This document shows positions 2,844-21,052 of a stretch of 21,054 bases of DNA, piece after piece. The stretch comes from Fibrobacteria bacterium. Lineage in GTDB: Bacteria; Fibrobacterota; Fibrobacteria; UBA11236. A program made the translations under genes and the position numbers. Within the stretch, counting starts at the first letter, position 1. Each line of letters opens with the position of its first letter. The notes under the pieces were generated by a model. That model ran no database searches and was not told the origin of the DNA. It saw only the letters and a list, made by a program, of their open reading frames with translations. The stretch covers positions 1 to 21,054 of the forward strand of contig JAYTHY010000123.1 of NCBI GenBank assembly GCA_043732185.1, given 5' to 3'.

Positions 2844-2879
2844 TTAATGCAATTCCATCACGTTACGGATTTCATCGGC

Positions 2880-5066: not shown

Positions 5067-5162
5067 AACGCCTCCGATACAGGTGCTGGTAAACAAGATA
5101 TATCGGAAGTGGTATTTCCAGAGTACGTTTATCATTCAAACATCATTCATATTGGAGGCCGT

Positions 5163-6392: not shown

Positions 6393-6396
6393 TGCG

Positions 6397-6418
6397 TTTG
6401 ATGGGTGTTCCATTCAAA
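6397..6418. terminator. Weak hairpin between convergent genes (possible terminator)
   Basis: TTTGATGG-GTGTT-CCATTCAAA (one bulge) fills the 28-bp gap between stops at 6392 and 6421; AT-rich stem and no good U-tract. Confidence 0.25.
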
Positions 6419-6420
6419 AA

Positions 6421-7377
6421 TTATGGACGCGAAGTCTCTCCACCGCAACTGGAGCCCGCTCCAGCCGTGCATCCGAAACAATGGTTTGCTACTCGTATAG
6501 ATCGGGAAAGAAATCCTGTCTGGGAAAACTCTGAGATATGCGATACCGGTTCCGATTTCATTTCGAGCATTTGATTGAAATCGCAGTCGTATATTGAACC
6601 GTCATATCCTACGGAAATTTGTTGGCGGCACATTAATCCATTCAATGTGGCTGGATTGAATGCATCAACCAGTAGATCCATATACTCCTGAAATTTTCCG
6701 CGTCGAATTAATGTTTCCAGAAAGCGGTTTATGGGCATGTTATTGATGCAATAAAGATTATGGAATTCAATTCCATAAAGGCCCTTGAGTTTAATTTTAA
6801 ACTCGGATTCCAATTGGGATTGCGAGGCACTTAAATAAAATCCGTTGGGATTATAGACTAGATTGAGCGGCAATCTTTTTCCATACCCCAAGGCATTCAG
6901 CTTTTGCAAGGCTTTGATGGACGCTGAAAAAACACCATTTCCACGTTGCTTGTTGGTCGTAGCTTCGGAAAAATGAGGAAGCGAAGCAGTAATTTCCACT
7001 TTATGTTCGCTCAGAAACGAATAAAGAAAGGCGAATTCCGGTTCCTCAAGTATGGTCAAGTTGCAACGGTCGATGACATGCTTGCCGAGGGCACGGCATT
7101 CCTGAACGAGATATTTAAAAAGCGGATGCATTTCCGGAGCCCCGCCGGTAATGTCTACAACCTCAATACCAGCTGTTTCCCGGATAACCTTCAAACAAGC
7201 GTTCATGGTTTCTAGGGACATGCTTTCCGTTCTTGCGGGAGAGGCGTCAACGTGACAGTGCACGCAAGCTTGGTTGCATTTTTTGCCGATATTTATCTGG
7301 AAAGTGCGCAAAGCAATGGGGGAAAGAGCACCCAAATCCAAAACTTTGGTACGAAAAGCCTGGGCTTCCATTTCCAT
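6421..7377 (-). CDS. arsS: Radical SAM/Cys-rich protein of the ArsS family (TIGR04167, DUF3641 C-terminus)
   Basis: 318 aa. QINIGKKCNQACVHCHVDASP (CxxxCxxC), VDITGGAPEM, IDRCNLTIL, LNLVYNP, NNMPINRF, LMCRQQISVGYDGSIYDCDFNQML and terminal HCFGCTAGAGSSCGG. Confidence 0.92.
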   Translation of the reverse strand: MEMEAQAFRTKVLDLGALSPIALRTFQINIGKKCNQACVHCHVDASPARTESMSLETMNACLKVIRETAGIEVVDITGGAPEMHPLFKYLVQECRALGKHVIDRCNLTILEEPEFAFLYSFLSEHKVEITASLPHFSEATTNKQRGNGVFSASIKALQKLNALGYGKRLPLNLVYNPNGFYLSASQSQLESEFKIKLKGLYGIEFHNLYCINNMPINRFLETLIRRGKFQEYMDLLVDAFNPATLNGLMCRQQISVGYDGSIYDCDFNQMLEMKSEPVSHISEFSQTGFLSRSIRVANHCFGCTAGAGSSCGGETSRP

Positions 7378-7618: not shown

Positions 7619-9886
7619 ATGTGGCATAATTGGATTCCGTGGAAGTACATATTGCGGTCCGTAGCCCAAAAAAAAGGCTTCATAGACCCGATTTCCGTTC
7701 TGGCTCGATTCAACGCCGTGTCTCAGCCCACTCAAACTGTGGCACCGATGGAGCTTCTGAGGGCAGGAATGGTTCTGCACGCCCGCGGATTCATCAATAA
7801 TAATTTTATCCAACATAATTTGGATTGGGTTTGGCCCTTCTGGGTACACAAGCAGTTTAACCCACGCGATCCCGCCTTTATTCCACGAGCCTTTGCCTTA
7901 ACGCATATAAATCTCACGCAGAGGAATTGGACCGCAGTTGGCTACCCGGAAAGCCCGGAAACGCCAATAGTGGATGGGCGTGGATTGTTGATGCCTTTTT
8001 TCGACAGTTGGTCTTTAGACGCCTGGTTCATGGCGGACAACGGCGAGGCGCTGATCCCGAGTAGAATGGAAAAGGCGTCACAAAAGTTAGAGATGGACGG
8101 CAATCTTCGCGTTACCACGGAATTTGAGAAAACGGGAATGCATTTGAAAATGTGCGCGGAAGTGGTCGTGGAGGACGGTGTTCCTACGTGCCTCTTACGC
8201 CTCAGAGCCGCTTCGGACATTTCCGGCTGGCTGGTAGGATCAATACGTCCTTACAATCCAGAAGGCGTCAGTTTTGTGAATAGGATTGCCATGTTGGAAG
8301 AGGTCCGCGGATGGAGTATCAACGGAGTGCATCAGGTGCATTTTTCCCGACCTCCGGATAAACACACATTATCTGATTATCGTGACGGTGATGTTTTCCT
8401 GTCGCTGAAGTCCGGTGGGTTTATGGGCAGGGACAAAGTGGAATGTCAGGTGGGTATGGCTACCGGCGCCGCATTATACCGCGTACAGGCAGGGGGAGAG
8501 TCCGAGGTAACATTAAAGGTACCTTTGATAAACTCCCATAAATTAGAGAAGTTTACTTTTAAAGCCGAGGAAAAATGGAGCGAAGCGAATGGCGCCGGTG
8601 TCGATTTTTCCGGAGGCTCGGGTAGTTTTCAATTTCTTTTTGCCGCGGCGAAATCTACGGTTTTGCTGTTGTCCCCCGGCGAGGTATACGCGGGACCCTA
8701 TACCTACAAACGGTTCTGGTATCGTGATGCAGCTATTATTCTGCATGCTCTCATGTGCGCCGGACACCGCCAACTGTCGGAAAAAATCCTCGATTACTTT
8801 ATCGACCATCAATCGGCGAACGGTTATTTCCGTTCTCAAGAAGGCGAATGGGATTCCAATGGGCAAGTGCTTTGGGCCTTGGGCCGGTATTGCCGACTGT
8901 TCCATGTCATTCCAAAACCAGAATGGGTGGCGGCCATTCGCAAGGCCGTGCAATGGATCATTCATAAACGGTTGAAGCCGGATTCCGGAAAACGACATTC
9001 GGAACTTTTACCAGCTGGTTTTAGCGCCGAACATTTGGGTCCGAATGACTATTACTATTGGGATGATTTTTGGACCATCAGCGGTTTGCGTTTGGCTGAG
9101 GAAATGCTTTCCCAAACCGGAAATTCGGAAACGGCCGTTCAAGCGGGCCAAGAAGCGGAATTGCTGAGCAAGGCTGTGGATAAAAGTCTGGAAATGGTTT
9201 GCACTGCCATAAATTCCGTGGCCATGCCCGCTTCTCCCTATCGACGGCTGGACAGTGGAGCTGTAGGTTCTGTGGTTGTTGGCTTTCCCCTCCAGTTATG
9301 GCCGTCCCGTGACCCAAGGTTGCTCGCCACTTTGGAATTTCTTTATGGGCATTGCTTTGTTAAAGACGCGTTCTATCACGACATCAGTCATTCGGGCATC
9401 AACCCCTATCTCAGCTTGCATATCGCTCAGTGCCTGCTCAGAGCGGGAGATCCTCGCTTCCAGAAAATAATGGAGTCTATCGCAAGTTTGGCAACGCCAA
9501 CGGGACAATGGCCCGAAGCCATCCATCCCCAATTGGGAACCGGTTGCATGGGCGATGGCCAACATGCTTGGGCTGCAGCGGAATGGATTATGATGGTGCG
9601 CAATTGTTTTCTGTTCGAAGAAGAATTTTCGGACAAACTTATTTTAGGCGCTGGACTCAACCCGGACTGGTGTGAAGGAGGTAAGCCCGCATCGTTTGGC
9701 CCTGCCCCCACCCGTTTTGGCCTGGTAACTGTAACCTTGCAAGTTACCGGTGATGAGGTAGAATTGCGTTGGTCCGGAAATTGGTTTGCTAAACCACCGG
9801 AAATCGAGGTGCGGTTTCCCGGACACGGATGGGTGGCAATTAGCAAAGAGCCGCATCGCCACGTGTATCAAAAGGTAAGAATGTGA
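7619..9886 (+). CDS. Six-hairpin glycosidase-like protein (GH15/GDE-like (alpha/alpha)6 domain with N-terminal beta domain)
   Basis: 755 aa, no signal peptide. YKRFWYRDAA (WxRD motif of six-hairpin glycosidases), EWDSNGQVLWAL, SAEHLGPNDYYYWDDFW, GQWPEAIHP...GDGQHAWAAAE. Confidence 0.72.
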   Translation: MWHNWIPWKYILRSVAQKKGFIDPISVLARFNAVSQPTQTVAPMELLRAGMVLHARGFINNNFIQHNLDWVWPFWVHKQFNPRDPAFIPRAFALTHINLTQRNWTAVGYPESPETPIVDGRGLLMPFFDSWSLDAWFMADNGEALIPSRMEKASQKLEMDGNLRVTTEFEKTGMHLKMCAEVVVEDGVPTCLLRLRAASDISGWLVGSIRPYNPEGVSFVNRIAMLEEVRGWSINGVHQVHFSRPPDKHTLSDYRDGDVFLSLKSGGFMGRDKVECQVGMATGAALYRVQAGGESEVTLKVPLINSHKLEKFTFKAEEKWSEANGAGVDFSGGSGSFQFLFAAAKSTVLLLSPGEVYAGPYTYKRFWYRDAAIILHALMCAGHRQLSEKILDYFIDHQSANGYFRSQEGEWDSNGQVLWALGRYCRLFHVIPKPEWVAAIRKAVQWIIHKRLKPDSGKRHSELLPAGFSAEHLGPNDYYYWDDFWTISGLRLAEEMLSQTGNSETAVQAGQEAELLSKAVDKSLEMVCTAINSVAMPASPYRRLDSGAVGSVVVGFPLQLWPSRDPRLLATLEFLYGHCFVKDAFYHDISHSGINPYLSLHIAQCLLRAGDPRFQKIMESIASLATPTGQWPEAIHPQLGTGCMGDGQHAWAAAEWIMMVRNCFLFEEEFSDKLILGAGLNPDWCEGGKPASFGPAPTRFGLVTVTLQVTGDEVELRWSGNWFAKPPEIEVRFPGHGWVAISKEPHRHVYQKVRM

Positions 9887-11175
9887 AGATTTTGATCATG
9901 ACCAACACCTACCGTCCTTTTACCGGGGGCGTACCGCGTTCCATTGACACCTTTGCCGGCCAATACCGTAAGCTAGGGCATAAGGTCAAAATCGTAGCGC
10001 CGGAATTTGATGGACAAGAAGAGGAAGTAGACGTAATTCGTGTCCCTGCTTTAAAACATTTTAATGGCACAGAATTCAGCGTGCAGTTGCCGGTTCCGTT
10101 TTACCTGTCGGAATTTCTAGCTGATTTCAAACCGGATGTGATCCATTCTCAGCATCCATTTTTGTTGGGCAATACGGCATTGCGATTGGCCGTAAATTTG
10201 GAAATCCCCCTAATCTATACCTTTCACACCTTCTACGAGCATTATCTCCATTACGTCCCTGGAGGGGAAAACGAAGCCATGAAGCGCTTTGTCACGACCA
10301 TGGTGGCCGGCTATGCAAATCTTTGCGACCATGTCATTGCTCCCAGTCATTTCGTCGCAGAGGAGTTGCGCAGACGTCAAGTGGTGAAACCCATCGATAT
10401 CATTCCAACCGGTGTGGATGTAGTGGGCATTGCTAAGGGGAATGGACCTGCCTTTAGGAAGAAATACGGCATTCCGTTAGACGCCTTTACTGTTGGCTTT
10501 GTTAGCCGCCTGGCACCGGAAAAAAACCTGACCTTTTTGAGTGATGCCGTGTTGGCGTTTCTGGAAGAAAACCCTAAAGCTTGGTTTCTGGTGGCGGGAA
10601 CCGGCCCCCTGGAAGTTGAATTGAAAAACCGTTACCTGGCATCCGATGTGGGGAATCGTATTATTGTCTTGGGCAACTTAAATGGAAGTGTTCTGCATGG
10701 GCTTTACCATGCCATGGATGTTTTTGCCTTTGCGTCCCAGTCTGAAACCCAAGGACTGGTGATTGCAGAAGCCATGGCTGCCGGAGTTCCTGTGGTTGCA
10801 GTCCGGGCACCGGGCGTAGAAGACGTGGTTCGGGATGAATTTAACGGAAGACTTTTATCTAGGGAAAATCAAATTGAGTTCACGCATGCGCTAGCGTGGG
10901 TGGCTGCGCTGACTAAGGAGAAAGGTGCGTTATTAAAATCCAACGCACTTAAAACCGTAGAGGAATTTTCAGATACGGCATGCGCCCGTAAAGTCTTGGC
11001 GCTCTTTCAGACTGCCCGTCGGGAATCCAAAGCTTTGCACGAACATGAAAACGCATGGGACGAATTTAAGAACATTGTATCTGCGGAGTGGAACCTGATT
11101 GCGAATCTTGGTCGAGCGGCTGGAAGTGCATGGGCTGAATCCGCCGCGGAAAATTCAAAAGAACAAATACTCTGA
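9883..11175 (+). CDS. GT4 glycosyltransferase (diacylglycerol glucosyltransferase-like subfamily)
   Basis: 430 aa, GTG start overlapping upstream stop (GTGA). MKILIMTNTYRPFTGGV, DVIHSQHPFLLG, YTFHTFYEHYLHY, FVSRLAPEKN, ASQSETQGLVIAEAMAAGVPVV. Confidence 0.92.
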   Translation: MKILIMTNTYRPFTGGVPRSIDTFAGQYRKLGHKVKIVAPEFDGQEEEVDVIRVPALKHFNGTEFSVQLPVPFYLSEFLADFKPDVIHSQHPFLLGNTALRLAVNLEIPLIYTFHTFYEHYLHYVPGGENEAMKRFVTTMVAGYANLCDHVIAPSHFVAEELRRRQVVKPIDIIPTGVDVVGIAKGNGPAFRKKYGIPLDAFTVGFVSRLAPEKNLTFLSDAVLAFLEENPKAWFLVAGTGPLEVELKNRYLASDVGNRIIVLGNLNGSVLHGLYHAMDVFAFASQSETQGLVIAEAMAAGVPVVAVRAPGVEDVVRDEFNGRLLSRENQIEFTHALAWVAALTKEKGALLKSNALKTVEEFSDTACARKVLALFQTARRESKALHEHENAWDEFKNIVSAEWNLIANLGRAAGSAWAESAAENSKEQIL

Positions 11176-11183
11176 AGGTTTCC

Positions 11184-11810
11184 CTAGCCGGATTTTTCCG
11201 ATGCTCTCACCAATGCAAGATAATTTCGAGTTGCTCTTTTAGAAATCAGGGCCATACCGATCAGGGCCACAACTCCTGCCGCGAGCGCAACTCCCCGGAC
11301 TAATGGATCCCGGAGAGTATTTTGATTCGCCAGCCCACTGAAGTCCTGGATCAGGGAACCAAGATATACCAGTGTAATGGAAAGGGGAAGGATCCCTAAA
11401 AACGTGCCCCTTAAAAAGGCCGAGAATGGGTATCCGATGGCGCCGAATATATAATTTGAAATTTTAAAGGGGAATAAGGGAGTCATGCGTGTTATGGCAA
11501 TGAATTTCCAGCCTTCCTCCGCCAGGGTGGTATTGAGTATTCCGAGTTTTGGATGTTTCAATAAGTAGCGGATAACCCAGGATTTTAAAAACCATCTTCC
11601 CAGGAAGAATGCCAAGCAAGCACCCAGCGTTTGGCCGACAACAAACAAAACAGATCCCTTAACCACCCCGAACAGGAATCCTCCCCCAACGGTTAGAAAA
11701 AGCCCAGGAAGCAGCAGGACTCCACCAAGTGCTACGCAAGCACAATATACCGCATAACCCAAGAGGCCTAGGTGTTCGATTGCAAGTATAAGATGTTCTA
11801 GCTGACCCAT
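11184..11810 (-). CDS. TVP38/TMEM64 (DedA/VTT superfamily) membrane protein
   Basis: Hydrophobic 208 aa from ATG 11810 (TTG 11822 alternative). LPGLFLTVGGGFLFG...GQTLGACLAFFLGR, GWKFIAITRMTPLFPFKISNYIFG, GTFLGILP. Confidence 0.9.
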   Translation of the reverse strand: MGQLEHLILAIEHLGLLGYAVYCACVALGGVLLLPGLFLTVGGGFLFGVVKGSVLFVVGQTLGACLAFFLGRWFLKSWVIRYLLKHPKLGILNTTLAEEGWKFIAITRMTPLFPFKISNYIFGAIGYPFSAFLRGTFLGILPLSITLVYLGSLIQDFSGLANQNTLRDPLVRGVALAAGVVALIGMALISKRATRNYLALVRASEKSG

Positions 11811-11995
11811 GTTTCCAGTCAATATAATCGTTGGCAGAAGCAGGTTCCACCCCTGAGTTTGATCCTGGAAAAACCGAGCCGTTTTGACAATAAAAAATGG
11901 AGCTTTTTAGACGCTTCCTGGTATTTAACTATGGACACAGACTTCTATTAATTTGTTTTTATAGAGAGAATTCCAGCCTTTATAAAGGAGAAAAA

Positions 11996-13216
11996 ATGAG
12001 CCAGGTCAAGCCGATAAGCCAAGTCCCCATGCAGTTTGAAACACGTCTCAATAAGAAGTTGATAGAGAGCCTAATCGAGACCAAAGCGGAATGGCGCGTT
12101 TCAGAATTCCGGCTTTCCCTTTATATTCCATTGGAAAAATCGTCGAATAATTTGCGGGAGGTGCACATTCAACTTGGCAATCTTAAGCGGAAAGCCCTGT
12201 TGGAATTGGAGCGACGGGAAGTCTCACCAGAAGACCAAGAAGAACTATTGGCCCCTGTGGAAAGGGTCATGCTAGAAACCGAGGCGTCGCGTTTTCGGGG
12301 AAAAGGTTTGGCCATTTTTTCTGGTAAAGGGTTTTCATCAATCCTGCTTTTATCCAAATCGCCTCCGGTTTTAATGGAAATCGACACGCATTTCAAACTC
12401 GATTATATTCTTCCCTTGTCCGTTGATCGGGAGCGATATTATCTGCTTGGTCTCAGTCTTCACTCAGTACGATTATGGGATTGTGATGGAGTATCCATGC
12501 ACGAGATACCTCTCACAGGAACTGAAACCAATATTCAAAAAACACCGCATTTCCAAGAATCCAATGGGCAAGTCTCTTTTCACACCAACTCCAATCCTGG
12601 TTCTGGAGGACATGGGTCCGCTTATTTTGGATATGGAAGCGGCCAAGGAGATGGAAAATTGATGAAGCAGGAAATCCAGCATTTCTTCCAAGCTATCGAT
12701 CATGGCGTCCATTCAATGCTGTCCAAAAAGAACCTGCCGCTCGTCCTGGCCGGAGTGGGCTATTTATTGCCCATATATCGTGAAGTCAGTAAATATCCAC
12801 AGTTAATAGCAGAAGAAATTATCGGTAACCCGGATTCTCAGGATAAAATTGAAGACTTACATGGCCGCGCAAACTCCCTTTTCCAACACCTGGAAAAAGA
12901 GGAGTGCAATCGGGCTACGCATATTTTTAAGGAAAACCTTGCTACGGGACGTGGTGCGTCCGGTGTAACTGATGTAGTTCCTTCGGCATTCTATGGACGT
13001 CTCACCCACTTATTCCTGGAAGCGGGAAAAGTGCAGTGGGGAATATTTGATAAGGCCAGTGGAAAAATAAACCTCCAGAATTCCTATGTTCCCGGAGCCG
13101 TAGATTTGGCTAATTTGGCTTGCGTGCATGCCCTTCTCCATGGGGGAAAGGTTTATGCCCTGACTCGGGAAGAAATGCCCAATAACGGCGACTTCGCCGC
13201 GCTATGTCGCAATTGA
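11996..13216 (+). CDS. Bacterial archaeo-eukaryotic release factor-like protein (baeRF7/baeRF3-like)
   Basis: Start re-picked to ATG 11996 (AAGGAG at 11985-11990), 406 aa. LSLYIP, GKGLAIF, YYLLGLSLHSVRLW, Gly-rich loop AYFGYG, FFQAIDHGV, PLVLAGVGYLLPIYREVSKYP, IIGNPD, SAFYGRLTHLF, DLANLA...ALLHGGKVY...MP...AALCR. Confidence 0.8.
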   Translation: MSQVKPISQVPMQFETRLNKKLIESLIETKAEWRVSEFRLSLYIPLEKSSNNLREVHIQLGNLKRKALLELERREVSPEDQEELLAPVERVMLETEASRFRGKGLAIFSGKGFSSILLLSKSPPVLMEIDTHFKLDYILPLSVDRERYYLLGLSLHSVRLWDCDGVSMHEIPLTGTETNIQKTPHFQESNGQVSFHTNSNPGSGGHGSAYFGYGSGQGDGKLMKQEIQHFFQAIDHGVHSMLSKKNLPLVLAGVGYLLPIYREVSKYPQLIAEEIIGNPDSQDKIEDLHGRANSLFQHLEKEECNRATHIFKENLATGRGASGVTDVVPSAFYGRLTHLFLEAGKVQWGIFDKASGKINLQNSYVPGAVDLANLACVHALLHGGKVYALTREEMPNNGDFAALCRN

Positions 13217-13229
13217 TTCAACTCCCATT

Positions 13230-14600
13230 TCAAAAGAAGACCTCCGCTGTGATTTGAATTTGCGTTGCTTGTTTTGACAGGGTGTATTCCCTGTCAATGG
13301 GACCGGCAAATCCATTCACTGACAGCGTCATGCCAAAATTGTTCAGATTGCGGTAGCCGAGGGTGGTGGAGAGCATCGCACAATTTTGATTTAAATTTCC
13401 GATCGCGTTGAAGGAAAGCGTCATATCGGAAAGGATGAAACGGCTTAAGCTGGTGAAAAAAGCCACGTAATGCCGGGAGTATGAATTCGGTTCATAAGCG
13501 CCATTCTTTGATGCCAAGGCAAGCGCTTCCACTGGGGAAAATCCTGCGAGCTCCGCTTGTCGCATCAGGTCCGCAAACGGCATCTTCCTGTTTTCGGAGC
13601 CTGGTTCATTGAAGTAGTATTCCACGACAGAAGTAACCCGGTTCGGAATCCCGGACATGGAAAAGCTTCGACCCAGGCCAACCGCCATCCGTGACTGCCA
13701 CTTCTCCTCCTTGCGACCAGGACTGGGAATGCCATTATTAAAAAGCAAAGTCTGGGTCTGAAACACTTGATATAACGCGGCCTCCAAAGTGACATCAAGT
13801 CCTAGAACTCGGGAAGAAAGATCCGCTCCATATACAGGATCGCGATGGCCGCCGTCCCATGCCATTAGTGCCAACTCGGTTCGTTTTATGAGAAACTCCG
13901 CCTTCACGGCTCCGGAAACACTGTCGAGGCGAGATACACCATCCACGTCTAGAAATCCATATAAATTGACGGCAGTGCCAAATGGCACTTGAACCTTGGC
14001 GCCATAAACACCTTCTCGGCCACCGATGCGACGGAAAAAAGATTTATGCTCTACATTGATCAAATCGGTTGGATTGAAGAACCAGCCTCGACCCCATTGA
14101 AGCACCTGTTTTCCCATTCTTAGCCATATTTTGTGATGGATATTGGCATCCAAAAAAGTTTCTGGTACGTGGAATTTCGTACTGGAATCGTCCGTCTTTC
14201 CGGCGTTTAAGGACCATTCGAGATCTGCAAATGCTCTGAACCCTTCCCGCATTCTTATATCCAACAAGGCAGTTCCAACTGCGCCAGAATTGAGGAAAGA
14301 TTGTTCCACATCCCAATCAGAAAAATATGCGCGATTTTGTGTAGGCTGCGTATAGGTGAGAATACTTCCTGAAAGCCCTACGGATTTAGGGTTTGGATTG
14401 GCGGCATTTTGATCATGGAAATGGATAGAGGAGTCTACCACGGTATTGGAATCCGAAAACAACTCGTTTTCTTCCGGGGAGTTTTCCGGGGATTTTTTCT
14501 GAGAGGTTACGGGGAGACCCACATTTTCCGAAATTGCCAAGGTAAAGGCCAGCAGTATCAAAATCAAAAACCTGAATCGAATTCCAACCTCGCTTTTCAT
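13230..14600 (-). CDS. Putative outer-membrane beta-barrel protein, last gene of Lol-like export operon
   Basis: 456 aa; N-terminal signal peptide, ETFLD...LRMGKQVLQWGRGWFFNPTDLIN, amphipathic beta strands, C-terminal QIQITAEVFF ending in Phe; ATGA overlap with upstream gene. Confidence 0.75.
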   Translation of the reverse strand: MKSEVGIRFRFLILILLAFTLAISENVGLPVTSQKKSPENSPEENELFSDSNTVVDSSIHFHDQNAANPNPKSVGLSGSILTYTQPTQNRAYFSDWDVEQSFLNSGAVGTALLDIRMREGFRAFADLEWSLNAGKTDDSSTKFHVPETFLDANIHHKIWLRMGKQVLQWGRGWFFNPTDLINVEHKSFFRRIGGREGVYGAKVQVPFGTAVNLYGFLDVDGVSRLDSVSGAVKAEFLIKRTELALMAWDGGHRDPVYGADLSSRVLGLDVTLEAALYQVFQTQTLLFNNGIPSPGRKEEKWQSRMAVGLGRSFSMSGIPNRVTSVVEYYFNEPGSENRKMPFADLMRQAELAGFSPVEALALASKNGAYEPNSYSRHYVAFFTSLSRFILSDMTLSFNAIGNLNQNCAMLSTTLGYRNLNNFGMTLSVNGFAGPIDREYTLSKQATQIQITAEVFF

Positions 14601-15424
14601 TTGCTCAAGTTTTCCAGATACGCCTTAGTGAAAATATCGTTGCTGATGGGATTGGTAGCAATGCCAGAAATGTTCAATTTTGTTTTATTGCCCTTTTCAA
14701 ATTCGTCTATAAATACCTGTTCCACCGGAATATAATGTTCCTTGATAGCCGTATACTTCAAGGAATAGGCCGTTTGCATGAGCGTTCCCGATAGTGAAAA
14801 GCTTTGTTCTTTGAGCACCAGAAAATTATCGCGGCGCACCCAATAGGTTTTGTTTGGATAATCCACATCACGCGCTTTTGCTTTCACTTGCATGCGATAC
14901 ACTGGAATTTTTCCAAGGATTGCTTCTGTAATCATTTCTTTTCCTGTGGAATCGGTTAAGGGAGCATAAAGCTCGGTCAATTTCCGATCCTCGAAATCAT
15001 CCCCTTGGGCATCCGTTCCACCGATATTTTCATCTCGGTTGATATGCTGAAAAGCGCGCGTATTGCGGCGATAAAGCCAAAAATTTTCGCCAACCCTTAA
15101 ATACCCATTGCCCTTGTCTGATTCCGGCCCTGTCATGATGATCAAAAATGATTTGTCGCTATCTCTTCGGTAAAAAAGCATATCGATGTTTTTGATACCC
15201 TGTCCAGTTTTTTGCTGCGTCAGCGATACTGTCGCGGTAATATCCGAACGCATACGAGTATTGGATTCCATTTTAGTTAAAAGGTCAGATCCTTTTGGTT
15301 GAGCCAAGCTAGGGATGATTTGGGCCATGACAAGAAACCATATTAGGGATGTAGAACCAGTCGAAAAGCAGGGTCGAATTTCACACATTATTTTTTTTCC
15401 CCTAAAGGCATTGATTATTCGCAT
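14597..15424 (-). CDS. Outer membrane lipoprotein-sorting protein (LolA-like fold)
   Basis: 275 aa (start uncertain); FLIIMTGPESDKGNGYLRVGENFWLY, IGGTDAQGDDF, DYPNKTYWV, FSLSGTLMQT, IFTKAYLENLSK; operon position after two FtsX permeases. Confidence 0.85.
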   Translation of the reverse strand: MRIINAFRGKKIMCEIRPCFSTGSTSLIWFLVMAQIIPSLAQPKGSDLLTKMESNTRMRSDITATVSLTQQKTGQGIKNIDMLFYRRDSDKSFLIIMTGPESDKGNGYLRVGENFWLYRRNTRAFQHINRDENIGGTDAQGDDFEDRKLTELYAPLTDSTGKEMITEAILGKIPVYRMQVKAKARDVDYPNKTYWVRRDNFLVLKEQSFSLSGTLMQTAYSLKYTAIKEHYIPVEQVFIDEFEKGNKTKLNISGIATNPISNDIFTKAYLENLSK

Positions 15425-15427
15425 CGT

Positions 15428-17212
15428 CTACCCAAAATGCCTCAGCGCATCGGATGGAGAAAGGCTCGCAGCCCGCCGCGCCGGGAACCAAGCCGTAACC
15501 GCCGCAATGAATAGTATAAGCACCAAGTAAAAAAGGGTACCGACCCAGCTGGGCACAAAATGCAACCGATGATTTACGATTAGCATCCCCAATGGATTGT
15601 CCGTACTTGAAAATCGAATGAGTTTCAGAAGCGCCATGGCAAGAAAAGCGAGGGCCGATCCCACTAAGCAGGAGAAAAGGGTGAGAAAAAAGGTTTCCAT
15701 CAAAAATATATTCCGCACATCTGATTTTTGCATGCCAATGGATCGCATGGTGCCTATTTCCCGAGTCCGTTCCCGAATAGTCATGCGGAGGGTATTGACG
15801 ACACCTACTTGGATTATGAAAAAAAGAATCAGTACTGCGGATAGAGTAATGATGTTGAGAGCGTATTCCAGATTGATGATCATGCTGGCGCTTTCATACA
15901 TGGTCTGCACGTCTACGGTAGTCGCCTTGGTCTTGAGCCGCGCGATATCGACGTATTTTTTCCTTAGGTCCGAGGTGCTGCGCGTACGGTCCAGCAATAC
16001 CCATTCCCTGTTAAGATAAGGGAAGATTGGGCTCAAGGTGTCCAGAAACTGTGAGAGGGCTTGAGCAGAGGGTTTGGGCCAATTGCCATAAAAGAAGCCA
16101 TAGAAATCTTTGTCGTTTACAAGGATACTGTGGCCTGTAAATGGGGAAGGATTTGGAAGAAATCCTGTGATAGTAAGGGTTACGAAAGCCGAAGCTGGTG
16201 TAGGACCATTCGAATTCTGAAATTTTGTCGGATACGAGAACTCGATTTTATCGCCTATGCCCAACTGTAAGCTATCCCCCAGTGTGCGGCTTATGAGCAC
16301 ATCATCACGGCTTAATGCATTTCGATTGGGAGCAAAGGCCGATAGTATTCCCGTCAAATTTTTCAAGGAAGCCGAGTCTACTTTATAGCCAAATACCGTT
16401 ACTGAAATGGTTTTAATTTTGCCCGCCACCGTGCCATGCACACATGCAATAGGGGGAACCAATCGCGCGTGCACGGAATCTGCAGTAGGCACAGCATTCT
16501 TTTTTGGATTGGAAACCGTGATATGCAATCCTCCAATATCATCAGGACTATATCCGGCAATGCGCTTAATGTCCTCCATCTTGAAAAATGCCGGCGTTGC
16601 CATAAAAATATTGGCGGGGTTGAAAATACCCGCCACCGTCAAGCGGGCCGCCTGGTTTTGGCCGTGGACGTCTTGGAAGCGAATGCGGAGCATGTCATTC
16701 ACCTTAACGTTTAAGTTTTTGGCTTTAACATTGGATAGAAGAACCGGGTTTTCCAAATCCGTTCTTAATAAGCTTTCAAAATCACCCTCAACCATACGAA
16801 AATCCGGGCGCATTTCTTCCATAACCTTACTGCTATTCGTAGCATCCACATTAAGGCCAACCAGTATCATATTGTCGGTTCTGGCATTGCCTATTACGCG
16901 CGCTAAAATACCAATGGCTTCTTCGGTGGAGAATCCAACAGGAAGCGTCTTGGTAATGAGTCCCAGCATGCGTTGGCCATCCGGGAAAAACGGGCGAGTC
17001 ATATTCCCATTTTGGGTAAATACTACACTGACCTGCCCCGACATATACGTTAATAAACGGTTGAAAAGGACATCGGATATTCCGTGCGAAAATGCATTTG
17101 CGACTCCAAGAATTGCCATACCCAAGGCGATGGCGGCACCCAGAAAAAGATTTCGACGCTTTTGGCGGAAAAGATTGCGTAGGCTGATGCGGAATAGGAT
17201 TTCCATATTCAT
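15428..17212 (-). CDS. ABC transporter permease, FtsX/MacB/LolCE family
   Basis: 594 aa; ISLRNLFRQKRRNLF + TM1, large periplasmic region, NTLRMTIRERTREIGTMRSIGM, PARRAASLSPSDALR. Confidence 0.93.
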   Translation of the reverse strand: MNMEILFRISLRNLFRQKRRNLFLGAAIALGMAILGVANAFSHGISDVLFNRLLTYMSGQVSVVFTQNGNMTRPFFPDGQRMLGLITKTLPVGFSTEEAIGILARVIGNARTDNMILVGLNVDATNSSKVMEEMRPDFRMVEGDFESLLRTDLENPVLLSNVKAKNLNVKVNDMLRIRFQDVHGQNQAARLTVAGIFNPANIFMATPAFFKMEDIKRIAGYSPDDIGGLHITVSNPKKNAVPTADSVHARLVPPIACVHGTVAGKIKTISVTVFGYKVDSASLKNLTGILSAFAPNRNALSRDDVLISRTLGDSLQLGIGDKIEFSYPTKFQNSNGPTPASAFVTLTITGFLPNPSPFTGHSILVNDKDFYGFFYGNWPKPSAQALSQFLDTLSPIFPYLNREWVLLDRTRSTSDLRKKYVDIARLKTKATTVDVQTMYESASMIINLEYALNIITLSAVLILFFIIQVGVVNTLRMTIRERTREIGTMRSIGMQKSDVRNIFLMETFFLTLFSCLVGSALAFLAMALLKLIRFSSTDNPLGMLIVNHRLHFVPSWVGTLFYLVLILFIAAVTAWFPARRAASLSPSDALRHFG

Positions 17213-18738
17213 TCCTTATTCACCGCGTCCAAAGGCGTTACTTTCCTGACCAAAATAAGTGGATACACAACTGCGGTCAGGGTCACAAAAAGCAATTGTA
17301 AAACGGCCAAGATCAGATCCCCACCTGTAAGTAAGGGATGAAAGGTATCTCCCCCAAAAAACAACTGTAACATGTCGTTGTCTGATGATATTTTGAAATA
17401 GGGAAGAACCATAACCATGAGCATCCCTGTGAGTATGCCGAGTCCTCCAAAAAGCAGAGCCAAATATGCAGTTTCAATCAGGAACATTAGACTGATAAAA
17501 CCCTTTCGTGCCCCTATTGCCCGCATCATACCAAGTTCCGAAGTCCTTTCCAGTGCCGCCATGCTTAAGGTGTTGACAATTATGATGACTGCCACGAAAA
17601 AAAGGAAACCCACAAATAAGAAAAGCGCTCCTTTAATCAGAGTGGCAATGCTACCCACTGGACCCAAGGCTGATTTCCAATCCACGGCGCGGACACCAGA
17701 TTTTGCTGCCTTAAGAGTGGCGTTCAAATTGGTAAGAGCTTCGTGATGGTTTATACCGGGTTTCAAAAAGATGAGAACGAGATTATAATCACCCGCTTCC
17801 ACGTTTGCTCCGGTGCTTTTGGATTGGATTTTGCGACTCCAATCTATGGGAGTTTTGACGCCAGCATGGGTTTCAGCGATGGAAGTATTCTCAGAAAACA
17901 TGTCATCTAGGCTTATTTCAGTTTTATAAAATAGGGCACTGTCTCGATTGGAAATCTGACTTTGGGATTTTTCTCCTGCCATAAAATATCCAAGACATTG
18001 ACGAAAGGATTCGATATCAATTAATGCGAAATTTCCGAAAATGGTGTTCAATGCGTGGTATCTGAAAATTCCATCTACATCCAGACGAAGATCCGTCGCG
18101 GAATTTTCCGCGTTGAACCCCATCATCACCATGCTGGATTTTAAACTGAGATCGTGGTAATTGGTACCGATGTCCTTTTCCAAATGGGCAGTATCGAGGA
18201 TTTTGCCCTTTGGTAGAAACCAGATATTCGTCTGGCGCTGAATTTCTTTTCTAGCCCCAGTGGGCAGCATCAAGGCCGGTTGCCCTTTTTTCGGAAGCTG
18301 TCCTTCGACCAAGTCCAGATTTCCTGGAAAGATTTTTTGGTAGCTTTCGAAATCTACGCCTAAGAGGTAGAGAAAGGTTGACGCGCCTCCGTCTTCATTC
18401 AGCACCATAGCCATGTTTTTCCCTACGGGGAGAAAATTTTCAACATCAGGATTTGCGCTCAAAACCTTTCGAATTGCCGTAAATCCGTGAATAGGTTCGA
18501 TGGCTTTTCCCATCATCTCCATAAAGACATTGTCGCTTTCCTGTTTGTTTGAGATAAGTACCACATCGCCTGTAAAACCGTGTACGACGGTTTTATTTAA
18601 GCCCGTTTCCATACCTGATATCACGCCGTTTCCCAGAGTCATGATGAGCGCGCCAAGAAAGAGTATGGCGCCCACCACCAGACTTTGTCCACGATGACGC
18701 CACAAATTGCGCGCGGCAATTTTCAGAATCAGATGCAT
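17209..18738 (-). CDS. ABC transporter permease, FtsX/MacB/LolCE family
   Basis: 509 aa; IAARNLWRHRGQS + TM1, NTLSMAALERTSELGMMRAIGA, YPLILVRKVTPLDAV; ATGA overlap with next permease. Confidence 0.93.
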   Translation of the reverse strand: MHLILKIAARNLWRHRGQSLVVGAILFLGALIMTLGNGVISGMETGLNKTVVHGFTGDVVLISNKQESDNVFMEMMGKAIEPIHGFTAIRKVLSANPDVENFLPVGKNMAMVLNEDGGASTFLYLLGVDFESYQKIFPGNLDLVEGQLPKKGQPALMLPTGARKEIQRQTNIWFLPKGKILDTAHLEKDIGTNYHDLSLKSSMVMMGFNAENSATDLRLDVDGIFRYHALNTIFGNFALIDIESFRQCLGYFMAGEKSQSQISNRDSALFYKTEISLDDMFSENTSIAETHAGVKTPIDWSRKIQSKSTGANVEAGDYNLVLIFLKPGINHHEALTNLNATLKAAKSGVRAVDWKSALGPVGSIATLIKGALFLFVGFLFFVAVIIIVNTLSMAALERTSELGMMRAIGARKGFISLMFLIETAYLALLFGGLGILTGMLMVMVLPYFKISSDNDMLQLFFGGDTFHPLLTGGDLILAVLQLLFVTLTAVVYPLILVRKVTPLDAVNKE

Positions 18739-18741
18739 AAC

Positions 18742-19419
18742 CTACCCGGCATCTATTCTTCCATCCTTGATTTGTATAACGGTTTTAGCGTACTTGAGTA
18801 CGTTTTTATCATGGGTGGAGAATACAAATGTGGTTTGCTCACTTTGATTTAGAGATTTCATCAGTTCCAAAATGGACTCACCGGTAACCGAATCGAGATT
18901 GGCAGTAGGTTCATCGGCCAAAACTATGTCTGGATGGGTAACCAGTGCTCTAGCGATGGCCACTCTTTGCCTCTGACCGCCGGATAGTTCGGCTGGTCGA
19001 TGATGGCGGAATTCCGTCAAGCCCACTTCATCAAGCAGCTTTTCCGCTCGGGTTCGGATTTCCCTATGCGACAACTTCTTTTGTAACAGCAAAGGAAATT
19101 CCACGTTTTCCGTGGCAGTTAATACTGGAATCAAATTAAAGGTTTGAAAAATAAAGCCCAGGTGATTAAGACGCAAATCCGTGATTTGCCGATCGGTAAG
19201 CGTGCCTAAATCCATTCCGCTTACCTTGACAGTTCCGGAAGTCGCTAAATCAATACACCCAATTACATTGAGAAGAGTGGTTTTCCCACTTCCGGATGGT
19301 CCCATGATGCTTACCAAATCCCCTTTGGAAATAGATAGGTCGATGCCTCGCAAAGCATGCACGGTAGTTTTTCCTAGGGCATAATCCTTGGTCAACCCAT
19401 GGATTTCAATAATGCTCAT
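18742..19419 (-). CDS. ABC transporter ATP-binding protein, LolD/MacB family
   Basis: Start re-picked to ATG 19419 (MSIIEIHGLTKDY), 225 aa. Walker A GPSGSGKT, GFIFQTFNLIP, LSGGQRQR, Walker B IVLADEPTANLD, STHD. Confidence 0.95.
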   Translation of the reverse strand: MSIIEIHGLTKDYALGKTTVHALRGIDLSISKGDLVSIMGPSGSGKTTLLNVIGCIDLATSGTVKVSGMDLGTLTDRQITDLRLNHLGFIFQTFNLIPVLTATENVEFPLLLQKKLSHREIRTRAEKLLDEVGLTEFRHHRPAELSGGQRQRVAIARALVTHPDIVLADEPTANLDSVTGESILELMKSLNQSEQTTFVFSTHDKNVLKYAKTVIQIKDGRIDAG

Positions 19420-19518
19420 TGCACAATCCCTTCCAGTTTCCGTATTTATATCGAGACACGGTTTCAAAATCGATCATTTCAAACGCAGGTGCAAGAAAAT
19501 TTTGCTGCCAAGGATAAA

Positions 19519-19564
19519 AATTGTCAAGCTGGCTCAATGCTCCGTTCAGAATTGTCAAATTGAC
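19519..19564 (+). promoter_or_regulatory. Candidate upstream activator sequence (enhancer-binding protein sites)
   Basis: AATTGTCAA at 19519-19527 and 19550-19558 (31 bp apart); second copy runs into dyad GTCAA-A-TTGAC (19554-19564); about 80-120 bp upstream of the -24 element. Confidence 0.5.
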
Positions 19565-19590
19565 GCAGTGGACTGCGGCATTATTTTATC

Positions 19591-19603
19591 AATCAAGTGA
19601 TTA
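19591..19603 (+). promoter_or_regulatory. Candidate IHF binding site
   Basis: AATCAA-GTGA-TTA matches WATCAA-N4-TTR exactly, preceded by AT-rich TTATTTTATC, and lies between the repeats and the -24/-12 element. Confidence 0.55.
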
Positions 19604-19640
19604 TTTGAGGTATGGGCTTCTACTTGGTTTTTCCAAATCG

Positions 19641-19656
19641 TGGTATGTAATTCGCT
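19641..19656 (+). promoter_or_regulatory. Candidate sigma54 (-24/-12) promoter of the sigma factor gene
   Basis: TGGTATG-TAAT-TCGCT versus consensus TGGCACG-N4-TTGCW; GG (19642-3) and GC (19654-5) are separated by exactly 10 nt; 59 bp upstream of the ATG. Confidence 0.65.
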
Positions 19657-19715
19657 TGTCAATCAAGGTAGGGTTATGGAACCACTTGTAACAATACCAG
19701 AAGGAGGGTAACCGC

Positions 19716-20597
19716 ATGATTTCGACAACCAAGTATTCCTTGAGGAAGTCAAAATTTGAAACGGAGGCTGTTTCAGCTTACATGAAGGATATTAAGCATT
19801 CCGTTAAACTGACGACCGAGGAAGAAAACGCTCTTGCATTGAGAATCCATGCGGGTGACAAACATGCTCTCAAGATTTTAGTTGAAGCGAACCTAAAATT
19901 TGTGGTGGCGGTATGCCGCAATTATAGAAACCAAGGTCTCCCCCTAGGAGATTTGATCAATGAAGGAAATTTGGGTTTAATAAAGGCTGCTTTGCGGTTT
20001 GAAGGTTCCAAGGAGACCCGTTTTATTTCTTATGCAGTTTGGTGGATCCGTCAAGGAATACTTGAGGCCTTGGCAAGCCAATCCAGATTCATGCGCATCC
20101 CCGCATCTTTTACGATGGGCATCCACAAAATAAACAATGCCACGCGTGCCTTGTTCCAAAAGTTAAGCCGCGAACCTACCGTTGAGGAGTTGGAATTGGA
20201 AACAGGGCTGGATGCGAATCGTATCCGCGATTGCAGGCTATTGTCTCAACCCACCGTATCCTTAAATTACTCAGCCGAAGGTGAAGGCGGTTCTGAATTC
20301 CAGGATTCCTTGGCAGATCGTTCTCAACCCGATGTGGAAATGCAAATGGATATTAAGCAGACCCGAAATGTTTTAGCGGGCTTATTATCGAGATTGAATC
20401 TTAGAGAGAGGGAAGTGCTTCGTTTATACTTTGGTATGGACTCGGGCGTTTCCAATAGCTTGGGGGAAATCGCCAATCGCTATGGCCTCTGCCGTGAGCG
20501 AGTCCGGCAAATAAAGAAAAGAGGACTGACCAATCTGAGAAGATTCATAAAATCAAGCGAAGTAAAAGCATCTTTAGTCAATGGAGCACAGTTATGA
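19716..20597 (+). CDS. RNA polymerase sigma70-family factor, RpoD/SigA-like paralog lacking region 1.1
   Basis: 293 aa, SD AAGGAGG at 19701-19707. Region 1.2 YMKDI...LTTEEE, region 2 ANLKFVVAVCRNYRNQGLPLGDLINEGNLGLIKAA and FISYAVWWIRQGI, region 3 LSREPTVEEL, region 4 REREVLRLYFG...SLGEIA...RERVRQIK. Confidence 0.93.
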   Translation: MISTTKYSLRKSKFETEAVSAYMKDIKHSVKLTTEEENALALRIHAGDKHALKILVEANLKFVVAVCRNYRNQGLPLGDLINEGNLGLIKAALRFEGSKETRFISYAVWWIRQGILEALASQSRFMRIPASFTMGIHKINNATRALFQKLSREPTVEELELETGLDANRIRDCRLLSQPTVSLNYSAEGEGGSEFQDSLADRSQPDVEMQMDIKQTRNVLAGLLSRLNLREREVLRLYFGMDSGVSNSLGEIANRYGLCRERVRQIKKRGLTNLRRFIKSSEVKASLVNGAQL

Positions 20598-21052
20598 AGA
20601 TCCGAAAAGTATGGTTTGTTTTGATTTTGCTAACCAGCATCGCATGGGTCCATGGGCAGTCGCCGTCAGCTAAAACCCAGAAAATCGATAGCTTGAAGGC
20701 CTTTCAGATTGTCATTGGTGCAGAAATGAAACAAAACAATCGGGTTATGGTTTTGAAAAATAGGCATCTTTCGGATTCTTTAATGGACCAGGCCAGTCAC
20801 GTCCAAAAAAATAAATTTGAAGGATTCCTATCCGACACCAACATTGCTCACGAAGTCAAGTCCCAGGAGGAATTTGTCCGATATTGGAAAAAACTCGAAG
20901 CTGAAAATGGGATTAAGGCGCTTAAAGATCAATATTCCCGGGCCGATATTGATAAATCTCTGATTCCTAAAAAGTATCTTTTCGACTCTTCCGTGGTCGT
21001 GTATCCTGGCGTCATTATTCTCAGAAATAGAATACTCCTTCATCCACATTAA
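20594..21052 (+). CDS. Hypothetical secreted protein
   Basis: 152 aa, ATGA overlap with sigma gene, signal peptide MKIRKVWFVLILLTSIAWVHG; no recognised domain. Confidence 0.7.
   Translation: MKIRKVWFVLILLTSIAWVHGQSPSAKTQKIDSLKAFQIVIGAEMKQNNRVMVLKNRHLSDSLMDQASHVQKNKFEGFLSDTNIAHEVKSQEEFVRYWKKLEAENGIKALKDQYSRADIDKSLIPKKYLFDSSVVVYPGVIILRNRILLHPH

What the first reader, a model, noticed from the sequence alone, without database searches (positions are those of the whole stretch)
19519..20597. Complete sigma54 promoter architecture driving an RpoD-like sigma factor: candidate RpoN-to-sigma70 cascade
Seen: in the 296-bp divergent intergenic region, in canonical order, are paired AATTGTCAA repeats with a GTCAA-A-TTGAC dyad (19519-19564), an exact IHF consensus (19591-19603), a GG-N10-GC element TGGTATGTAATTCGCT (19641-19656), a strong SD and the sigma gene. 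Established: sigma54 promoters need an upstream-bound enhancer-binding ATPase, often with IHF looping; a sigma54-driven sigma70-family factor is known from the Borrelia Rrp2-RpoN-RpoS pathway. Inference: this organism has an analogous sigma cascade using a paralog of the FCB-type housekeeping sigma. I do not know of such a cascade described in this lineage, but cannot check the literature.
Basis: partly seen in the sequence, partly recalled or inferred. Interest (0 to 1): 0.72.

Follow-up and report, generated by a model that had tools for sequence, protein, structure and literature searches.

The report
Low-oxygen sigma-54 relay to sigma-70 duplicate
In an uncultured Fibrobacteria bacterium, the gene for a spare RNA-polymerase sigma factor sits behind a weak but lineage-conserved sigma-54 promoter motif and a paired DNA motif shared with respiration and stress genes, so a predicted low-oxygen two-component switch likely turns on a second sigma factor, a known kind of relay in a new setting.

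Summary
The -24/-12 box is weak alone (7.8 bits; 129 of 2,356 upstream regions match as well). Six of the seven more distant orthologues, however, carry canonical boxes 44-58 nt before the ATG, and the seventh follows a USP gene that has one; 0 of 80 other paralogues reach 12 bits. They are left halves of two 15-bp dyads (TTGYCA-N3-TGRCAA). The same pair precedes sigma-54 boxes of hemN, cytochrome oxidase, a NarG-like enzyme, moaA, hemerythrin and USP genes, and lies between a PAS kinase and an NtrC-type activator of the same island, the likely regulator. The IHF site is not conserved. Best reading: a low-oxygen/redox two-component system, sigma-54, then a genus-specific sigma-70 duplicate. 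Closest known systems: Myxococcus NmpR (regulon) and Borrelia RpoN-RpoS or Pseudomonas HrpL (relay). Nothing is shown experimentally, and the sigma's targets are unknown. The scan noted the same relay before, on other DNA and a different paralogue, in Fibrobacter (e1-2650284). That paralogue is probably the primary sigma and has the box in 34 of 39 genomes.

The parts
19716..20597 (+). Sigma-70-family factor, 293 aa, regions 1.2-4 without 1.1; member of a nine-gene genus-specific clade (clade A)
   Evidence: Pfam and NCBIfam (below all RpoD/RpoS equivalog cut-offs); trees; region 2.3-2.4 and 4.2 motifs intact; dN/dS 0.23 against G002
19641..19656 (+). Sigma-54 -24/-12 box, weak variant (TGGTATG-N4-TCGCT); predicted start near 19667
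   Evidence: Sequence; 7.8 bits; identical in G002; canonical boxes in 6 of 7 distant orthologues; TCGC variant seen 10 times at the canonical spacing against 1-4 at other spacings
19552..19566 (.). Proximal enhancer dyad TTGTCAA-A-TTGACGC, centre about -108
   Evidence: Top site (13.2 bits) in the intergenic region under a matrix trained on six relatives only
19521..19535 (.). Distal enhancer dyad TTGTCAA-G-CTGGCTC, centre about -139, 31 bp from the proximal one
   Evidence: Second site (10.4 bits) under the same matrix; unchanged in G002
19591..19603 (+). Exact match to the E. coli IHF consensus (consensus recalled); function not supported
   Evidence: not conserved and not enriched at this genome's sigma-54 promoters
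19701..19707 (+). Shine-Dalgarno AAGGAGG
   Evidence: Sequence
20594..21052 (+). Unannotated ~152-aa ORF overlapping the sigma stop (ATGA), probably co-transcribed; runs to the contig end
   Evidence: no Pfam or NCBIfam match; 99% identical in G002, 40% homologue near the sigma gene in G003
13230..19419 (-). Divergent LolCDE/MacAB-like ABC operon: ATPase, two FtsX-type permeases, LolA-like protein and an unannotated ORF. It shares the enhancer region
   Evidence: divergent from the sigma gene also in G003, G004, G006 and G007, where it has its own 18.5-19.9-bit sigma-54 box; best box in the window 1.9 bits
19499..19527 (-). Sigma-70-like TTGACA-17-CAAAAT facing the ABC operon; its -35 overlaps the distal dyad
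   Evidence: 3 found against 1.2 expected; TTGACA-17-TAnnnT is the enriched spacing in this genome; function untested
11897..13216 (+). baeRF-family putative ribosome hibernation factor, part of the same island in several relatives
   Evidence: in G012 and G001 preceded by a dyad pair and a sigma-54 box

Best explanation
The gene encodes a genus-specific duplicate of the short Bacteroidota-type sigma-70 factor and is likely transcribed by sigma-54 RNA polymerase from the box at 19641-19656 when an NtrC-type activator, predicted to be phosphorylated by a redox-sensing PAS kinase under low oxygen, binds the two dyads at about -108 and -139. Shown: the motifs, their conservation, the gene content and the linkage. 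Inferred: (1) sigma-54 dependence, about 0.85; (2) the dyads are the enhancer, about 0.85; (3) the activator is G000:C108:21873-23258 and the kinase G000:C65:118-1254, about 0.7; (4) the signal is low oxygen or cell redox state, about 0.65; (5) the sigma then redirects core polymerase to a second tier of sigma-70-type promoters, as RpoS does, about 0.6, with no target identified. DNA bending is probably by spacing and HU/IHF-family proteins without a conserved site.
For: rpoN present (40 of 41 genomes). Clade A is one side of a branch (98 in FastTree; SH-aLRT 89). Boxes of 16.8-19.4 bits lie 44-58 nt before the ATG in 6 of 7 distant members; the seventh follows a USP gene whose promoter has a 17.9-bit box and a dyad pair. 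0 of 80 other Fibrobacteria paralogues reach 12 bits and 6 of 80 reach 7.8; 2 of 64 outside homologues reach 12. De novo search on six relatives finds a 15-bp dyad pair 20 bp apart, score 70.6 against at most 48.1 in 20 shuffles. 20 of 28 non-training pairs in 15 island loci lie 40-150 nt upstream of a box of 12 bits or more, where 3.2% of the sequence is so placed. In G000, 5 of 14 entries with a pair of 16 bits or more have such a box, against 49 of 2,060. Targets: hemN, cytochrome c oxidase I/II, a NarG/DMSO-reductase-type molybdoenzyme, moaA, hemerythrin/RIC-like, USP, cytochrome c. The kinase-activator pair has the dyad pair and a sigma-54 box between its genes in G006, G009, G012, G013 and G014, and lies about 12 kb from the sigma gene in G006 and G012. 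All nine clade-A genomes have the activator. hemN has a pair of 17 bits or more in 13 of 20 activator-positive and 0 of 6 activator-negative genomes. The kinase PAS region matches PDB 3ewk, 2gj3 and 8dik (MmoS, NifL and Aer, FAD-binding, from recall).
Against: The window's own box is weak, and about half of such scores are chance (129 against 69). The divergent ABC operon has lost its sigma-54 box here, so this promoter region has been remodelled in the G000/G002 lineage. The 31-bp spacing differs from the 20 bp of the training set, and I added 30-32 to the scan after seeing it; 29-31 bp does recur at cox2, the NarG-like operon and hemN in G000. The null is too lenient, because both features favour intergenic DNA and orthologous promoters are not independent. 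Five of the six hemN negatives come from other orders, and 7 of 20 positives lack the pair. Kinase and activator are on separate contigs in G000 and are not joined there; adjacency is read from G002. The activator has GSFTGA, not GAFTGA. Flavin binding is untested. There is no expression or start-site data and no identified target of the sigma.
Confidence: 0.62

Rival explanations
1. The relay is real, but another regulator reads the dyads (one of the other 17 sigma-54 activators, such as C80:13113 beside the PFOR/pyrophosphatase genes), or the signal is nitric oxide or nitrate rather than oxygen or redox.
For: The proximal dyad fits the NorR core GT-N7-AC (PMC1274295, passages). The one perfect dyad among the genome's upstream regions precedes norCBQ-like genes. 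Neighbours include RIC-like and NnrS-like genes. A weaker pair lies between HPPase and the C80 kinase-activator genes.
Against: Neither activator scanned (C108, GAF-type C46) reaches the NorR cut-off. The pair sits between the C108 activator and its kinase in five genomes. hemN, cytochrome oxidase and USP targets match the oxygen-limitation regulon of NmpR (PMC11841059).
Confidence: 0.2
2. In this lineage the sigma-54 box is a decaying relic. The sigma gene is silent or read from another promoter, and the TTGTCAA repeats now serve as the -35 element or an operator of the divergent ABC operon.
For: Weak box. TTGACA-17-CAAAAT on the minus strand and TTGACG-16-TATTTT on the plus strand. The ABC operon's sigma-54 box is gone. 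In G002 the similar box before the USP gene is missing.
Against: None of 12 substitutions against G002 falls in the dyads or the box (chance about 0.13, so weak). The same TGGTATG...TCGCTT variant precedes the USP gene in G000, and the TCGC variant is enriched at the right spacing. The 16-nt-spacer arrangement of the plus-strand candidate is not enriched (8 against 7). The gene is under purifying selection.
Confidence: 0.11
3. The promoter is sigma-54-driven, but the product is not a redirecting sigma. It acts as a decoy that competes for core polymerase during dormancy, or is a near-neutral passenger of a shuffling stress island.
For: Found in only 9 of 15 genomes of the genus. Long branches, 44-53% identity among members, dN/dS 0.23 against 0.007 for the conserved paralogue. 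Gene order around it differs between genomes.
Against: Regions 2.3-2.4 and 4.2 are intact in all seven members aligned. Promoter and enhancer are kept through rearrangements.
Confidence: 0.07

Closest known systems
Myxococcus xanthus NmpRSTU oxygen-utilisation regulon (PMC11841059; read: abstract, introduction, methods, first results, section 16, passages)
   Same: NtrC-like regulator, two 15-bp dyads upstream of a sigma-54 box, gaps of 5 or 14-15 nt between sites (20 or 29-30 bp centre to centre, as here 19-21 or 29-31), targets including hemN, hemerythrin, USP and a cytochrome oxidase, and control of its own locus.
   Different: Site GCGCA-N5-TGCGC against TTGYCA-N3-TGRCAA here. Protoglobin sensor and phosphorelay against a single PAS kinase (no protoglobin match in G000). 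No sigma factor is named as a target in the parts read ('sigma factor' occurs once in the main text).
Borrelia burgdorferi Rrp2-RpoN-RpoS (PMC11109971; passages)
   Same: An NtrC-type activator and sigma-54 transcribe the gene of a group-2-like sigma-70 factor.
   Different: rpoS is reported as the gene with a sigma-54-type promoter and Rrp2 as the only activator; a cited paper's title says activation is enhancer-independent. Here the sigma is one of many targets of one of 18 activators, has a conserved enhancer pair, and is not an RpoS (217 bits, cut-off 379).
Pseudomonas syringae HrpRS-RpoN-HrpL (PMC3105312; passages)
   Different: HrpL is an ECF sigma, the activators are a heteromeric pair controlled by HrpV/HrpG, and IHF dependence is shown; here the IHF site is not conserved.
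NorR regulon (PMC1274295; passages)
   Same: Tandem dyads with a GT-N7-AC core upstream of sigma-54 promoters of nitrogen-oxide genes.
   Different: NorR uses three sites and senses NO through a GAF domain (PMC2941729, search listing). The candidate here is receiver-AAA-HTH and scores 319 against a cut-off of 476.
Bacteroidota primary sigma factor (Vingadassalom 2005; title only, seen in a reference list; properties recalled)
   Same: Short RpoD-like protein without region 1.1, with the FISYAVWWIRQ signature shared with a Flavobacteriaceae homologue.
   Different: This is a patchy, fast-evolving duplicate inside a Fibrobacteria expansion of up to 18 matches per genome, not the primary factor.

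Membership tests
Sigma-54-dependent promoter | GG at -24 and GC at -12 with 10 nt between | tested here: met
   weak variant, 7.8 bits
Sigma-54-dependent promoter | rpoN and activators in the genome | tested here: met
Sigma-54-dependent promoter | Box conserved in orthologous promoters | tested here: met
   6 of 7 distant orthologues directly, the seventh at its operon head
Sigma-54-dependent promoter | Paired upstream activator sites about 80-180 nt upstream | tested here: met
Sigma-54-dependent promoter | Functional IHF site between enhancer and promoter (optional feature) | tested here: inconclusive
   Exact match in G000 only; not conserved, not enriched. Two of four HU/IHF proteins score best to IHF-alpha models, below the cut-offs
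Sigma-54-dependent promoter | Start 12 nt downstream of GC, dependent on RpoN | not testable with these tools
   Needs transcript mapping
Group 1 (primary) sigma-70 | Region 1.1, RpoD equivalog score, universal presence | tested here: not met
   No 1.1; 192-205 bits against cut-offs 354-572; 9 of 15 genomes of the genus
Group-2-like alternative sigma-70 | Regions 1.2, 2, 3 and 4 intact, dispensable distribution | tested here: met
RpoS (Borrelia-type relay output) | RpoS equivalog score | tested here: not met
   217 and 200 bits against 379 and 394 (proteobacterial models)
NmpRSTU system | Protoglobin sensor kinase | tested here: not met
   No PF11563 match in G000, 100% complete
NmpRSTU system | Site GCGCA-N5-TGCGC | tested here: not met
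   Matrix consensus TTGYCA-N3-TGRCAA
NmpRSTU system | Orthology of the activator to NmpR | not tested
   No NmpR sequence was available from a tool; those of the best 120 homologues that name an organism are Fibrobacterota
NorR regulon | GAF-AAA-HTH activator above the NorR cut-off | tested here: not met
   C108 319 bits, C46 357 bits, cut-off 476; the other 16 activators were not scanned
NtrC-type activator (C108:21873) | Receiver, AAA+ with sigma-54-contact loop, Fis-type HTH | tested here: met
   Pfam; receiver Asp, Walker A/B and a GSFTGA loop variant
FAD-PAS redox sensor kinase (C65:118) | Flavin bound in the PAS domain | not testable with these tools
   Sequence likeness to 3ewk, 2gj3 and 8dik only

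The most novel reading that the evidence does not exclude
Fibrobacteria have inverted the usual hierarchy. Sigma-54 and its activators sit above the sigma-70 layer, having been recruited independently to at least two and perhaps three sigma-70 paralogues: this low-oxygen duplicate, the ultra-conserved paralogue that is the only RpoD-like factor of a complete 1.6-Mb relative and so probably the primary sigma (box in 34 of 39 genomes, with its own GTCA-N7-TGAC dyads), and a third clade with a variant box at -29. Supply of the housekeeping sigma itself would then be gated by an ATP-driven activator.
Probability: 0.3. Interest if true: 0.82.

Novelty: new variant of a known kind. Interest (0 to 1): 0.5.

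Why it matters
No paper on sigma-54 regulation in this phylum turned up in the library searches. The finding gives a candidate oxygen-limitation regulon with sensor, activator, binding motif and targets, and puts a sigma-70 duplicate inside it. That would add a second tier to an NmpR-like response and give one of the many Fibrobacteria sigma paralogues a first role. With the conserved paralogue, it suggests that sigma-54-to-sigma-70 relays arose repeatedly here. Each step can be tested in E. coli reporters or in vitro, and the conserved-paralogue case in a culturable Fibrobacter. The relay principle itself is not new.

Tried and rejected
Metagenome scan with the clade alignment: 80 loci, none in clade A (best 305 bits against 453 or more for members), so the clade sample stays at nine genes. 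Genome-contig scan: gave the lineage and outgroups, no further members. Sequencing runs: no RNA holder listed. IHF as a conserved element: rejected. A plus-strand sigma-70 promoter, TTGACG-16-TATTTT: spacing not enriched. A minus-strand GG-N10-GC at 19421-19434 for the ABC operon: rejected, its start would fall inside the ORF. NorR and NmpR membership: rejected as above. CRP/FNR-family reader of the dyad: two such proteins pass the cut-off in G000, but pairs 60-115 nt upstream of sigma-54 boxes do not fit them; not tested further. cox2 as a second cross-genome test: a close orthologue only in G008, loci not analysed. norCBQ as a regulon member: uncertain, since its dyads are 96 nt apart and its box is atypical. 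No search for the sigma's target promoters was run. PMC2831329 (passages) and PMC12641261 (passages) added nothing on this lineage. PMC12316311 has no mention of Fibrobacter in its main text; its supplements were not opened and may list predicted Fibrobacter sigma-54 targets.

Full report
Setting. The window is contig C123 of a 4.46-Mb, 100%-complete genome. The closest titled relatives of the gene are Fibrobacteria. Relatives are cited by handle. G011 is unpublished: it is left out of all trees and motif counts, but the tool's tallies out of 41 or 15 genomes include it.

Observation. All elements are at the stated coordinates. The gene at 19716-20597 encodes a 293-aa sigma-70 protein with regions 1.2, 2, 3 and 4 and no region 1.1, below every RpoD and RpoS equivalog cut-off. 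The genome has eight matches to it: six short paralogues including itself, one 499-aa RpoD-type protein and one distant FliA-like one (label from recall). It has rpoN, 18 full sigma-54 activator domains among 24 matches and four HU/IHF-family genes. Strict sigma-54 boxes occur 37 times in upstream regions at the canonical spacing, against 6-17 at other spacings (genes called by my own script).

The box alone is weak. On a matrix from those 37 sites it scores 7.8 bits; 129 of 2,356 upstream regions reach that and 69 do on the reverse strand. Its TCGC variant does occur 10 times at the canonical spacing against 1-4 at others.

Orthologues rescue it. I searched 40 relatives (346 matches, 150 listed), took its 30 loci and fetched 60 more of the best-scoring listed matches. 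With outgroups these gave a tree of 184 proteins and a 53-row check. The gene falls in a nine-member clade (support 98 and 89), one copy in each of 9 of 15 genomes of the genus (the profile was built from eight of them). G002 is a near copy. Of the other seven, six have boxes of 16.8-19.4 bits 44-58 nt before the ATG. The seventh lies directly behind a USP gene whose promoter has a 17.9-bit box. Among 80 other Fibrobacteria paralogues (five more dropped for short upstream sequence; start codons chosen by heuristic), none reaches 12 bits and six reach 7.8. Five of those six form one clade with a variant box at -29.

The repeats are an enhancer pair. A sampler run on the six distant promoters, without the window, found a 15-bp palindromic pair 20 bp apart, scoring 70.6 against 37.5-48.1 in 20 shuffles. 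I had noticed the pattern by eye first. The resulting matrix, consensus TTGYCA-N3-TGRCAA, ranks 19552-19566 and 19521-19535 first and second in the 296-nt gap, and the pair among the top five of 2,074 upstream entries. The 31-bp spacing is one helical turn more than 20; I added it to the scan after seeing it, but 29-31 recurs at three other promoters of this genome. In 15 island loci of relatives, 20 of 28 non-training pairs lie 40-150 nt upstream of a box of 12 bits or more (3.2% of sequence; a lenient null). In G000, 49 of 54 entries with a strong box lack a pair of 16 bits, so the motif marks one subset of sigma-54 promoters.

The regulon points to low oxygen. In G000 the pair or its sites precede cytochrome c oxidase II/I, a NarG/DMSO-reductase-type molybdoenzyme operon, hemN, moaA, a hemerythrin/RIC-like gene, a cytochrome c, more weakly pyrophosphatase with PFOR, and uncertainly norCBQ-like genes. 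Some top-ranked pairs precede genes with no such link (for example C24:3372, C59:45932 and C59:51547). The window's right end overlaps contig C65 by 97 nt, which carries USP, a response regulator, a deacetylase, a CoA hydrolase, a P-type ATPase, a beta-CASP hydrolase, the hemerythrin gene and two PAS kinases. Relatives hold the same set in shuffled order, plus LOG-family, NnrS-like, baeRF and PEPCK genes.

Candidate activator. In G002 the kinase C65:118 is the divergent neighbour of the NtrC-type activator C108:21873; in G000 the two contigs do not join. The pair lies about 12 kb from the sigma gene in G006 and G012, and has a dyad pair with a sigma-54 box between its genes in five genomes. 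Orthologues were found in 29 of 41 genomes, including all nine with the clade. G010 (98% complete) has neither (best match 45%). Upstream of hemN a pair of 17 bits or more occurs in 13 of 20 activator-positive and 0 of 6 activator-negative genomes; 3 of 29 rows were dropped for short sequence, and the negatives are mostly other orders. The kinase PAS resembles solved PAS domains 3ewk, 2gj3 and 8dik, which I recall as FAD redox sensors.

IHF. The match is exact and in the usual position, but G002 has one mismatch, the six distant promoters have nothing within one mismatch, and 0 of 41 strong boxes in G000 have an exact site within 80 nt upstream. I do not count it.

Local remodelling. In G003, G004, G006 and G007 the divergent ABC operon has its own strong sigma-54 box sharing the enhancer region. 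Here it has none, and a TTGACA-17-CAAAAT overlaps the distal dyad. This supports the relic rival a little. Against it, none of 12 intergenic changes to G002 touches the dyads or the box (not significant), and the gene has dN/dS 0.23.

Mechanism. Most likely: low oxygen changes the PAS kinase's redox state, the activator is phosphorylated, binds the dyad pairs and opens sigma-54 promoters of respiratory, heme, molybdenum-cofactor and dormancy genes, of its own locus and of this sigma gene. The sigma, with intact promoter-recognition regions, would then drive a second tier. All of these steps are inferred; overall confidence 0.62.

Known systems. The regulon works like Myxococcus NmpR (PMC11841059) but fails two membership tests, sensor type and site. 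The relay works like Borrelia Rrp2-RpoN-RpoS (PMC11109971) and P. syringae HrpRS-RpoN-HrpL (PMC3105312). Library searches for this phylum gave nothing relevant: Fibrobacter + sigma factor + RpoN, five papers, none on the topic by title and abstract start; Fibrobacterota + sigma factor + paralog, none; F. succinogenes + sigma + promoter + transcription, 20 of 45 listed, none on the topic; Fibrobacteres + sigma54 + enhancer binding, none of the 15 listed holds the phylum name. The library lacks most subscription journals.

A wider pattern. A second paralogue (G000:C82:18832) is present in 41 of 41 genomes, 94-100% identical within the family apart from one split copy. It is the only match in the single-contig 1.6-Mb G025, while the long RpoD-type gene was not found with this query at 1e-60 in 13 of 41, so it is probably the primary sigma. 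It has a box of 9 bits or more in 26 of 29 genomes and of 13 or more in 8 of 10 further ones, but not in G025, G016, G036, G034 or one G029 copy.

Verdict. A real sigma-54 promoter with a real enhancer pair, probably driving a sigma-70 duplicate inside an undescribed low-oxygen regulon: a new variant of a known kind. Interest 0.5.

Noticed in passing
G000:C82:18832-19644 (L167) and L173-L202, L363-L377: Ultra-conserved short sigma-70, probably the primary factor of Fibrobacteria, with a sigma-54 box in 34 of 39 genomes and two or three GTCA-N7-TGAC dyads upstream in many. Its activator is unidentified.
   Followed up: partly
L141, L144-L147: A third sigma-70 clade has a conserved TGGCCCG-N4-TTGATT element 29 nt before the ATG (9.7-11.7 bits), possibly another sigma-54 recruitment; the same variant precedes several G000 genes.
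   Followed up: no
L027-L030, L032 upstream regions: The C129-like paralogues share TGACA, 20 nt, then a TA-rich hexamer, often with a second TGAC 11 nt upstream; possibly an OmpR/PhoB-type tandem site (seen by eye).
   Followed up: no
G000:C65:11938-12251 against L033:4250-4620: About 50 nt holding the sigma-54-like box before the USP gene is present in G000 and absent in G002, between near-identical 12-nt repeats.
   Followed up: no
G000:C114:41279-45856 (L316): norCBQ-like operon with the only perfect TTGYCAA-N-TTGRCAA dyad among upstream regions, a second dyad 96 nt away and an atypical box.
   Followed up: partly
G000:C131:2021-9238 (L314): Molybdoenzyme of the DMSO-reductase type II group with its Fe-S subunit, next to hemN; contig C131 joins C16, which carries moaA.
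   Followed up: partly
G001-G014: The genus carries 8-18 matches to the short sigma-70 per genome, against 1-5 in small-genome relatives: a large lineage-specific expansion.
   Followed up: partly
window 2151-7377: DUF2064 gene, a beta-helix secreted protein, an unannotated 509-aa ORF and a radical SAM/DUF3641 gene; not obviously part of the island.
   Followed up: no
window 7619-11822: Unannotated 755-aa ORF, GT4 glycosyltransferase and VTT-domain gene just before the baeRF gene; no sigma-54 box above 6.5 bits upstream.
   Followed up: no
G026:C490 and G024, G003, G004, G007, G009, G013: Several genomes have two copies of the candidate activator; in G020 and G022 it lies beside hemN.
   Followed up: no
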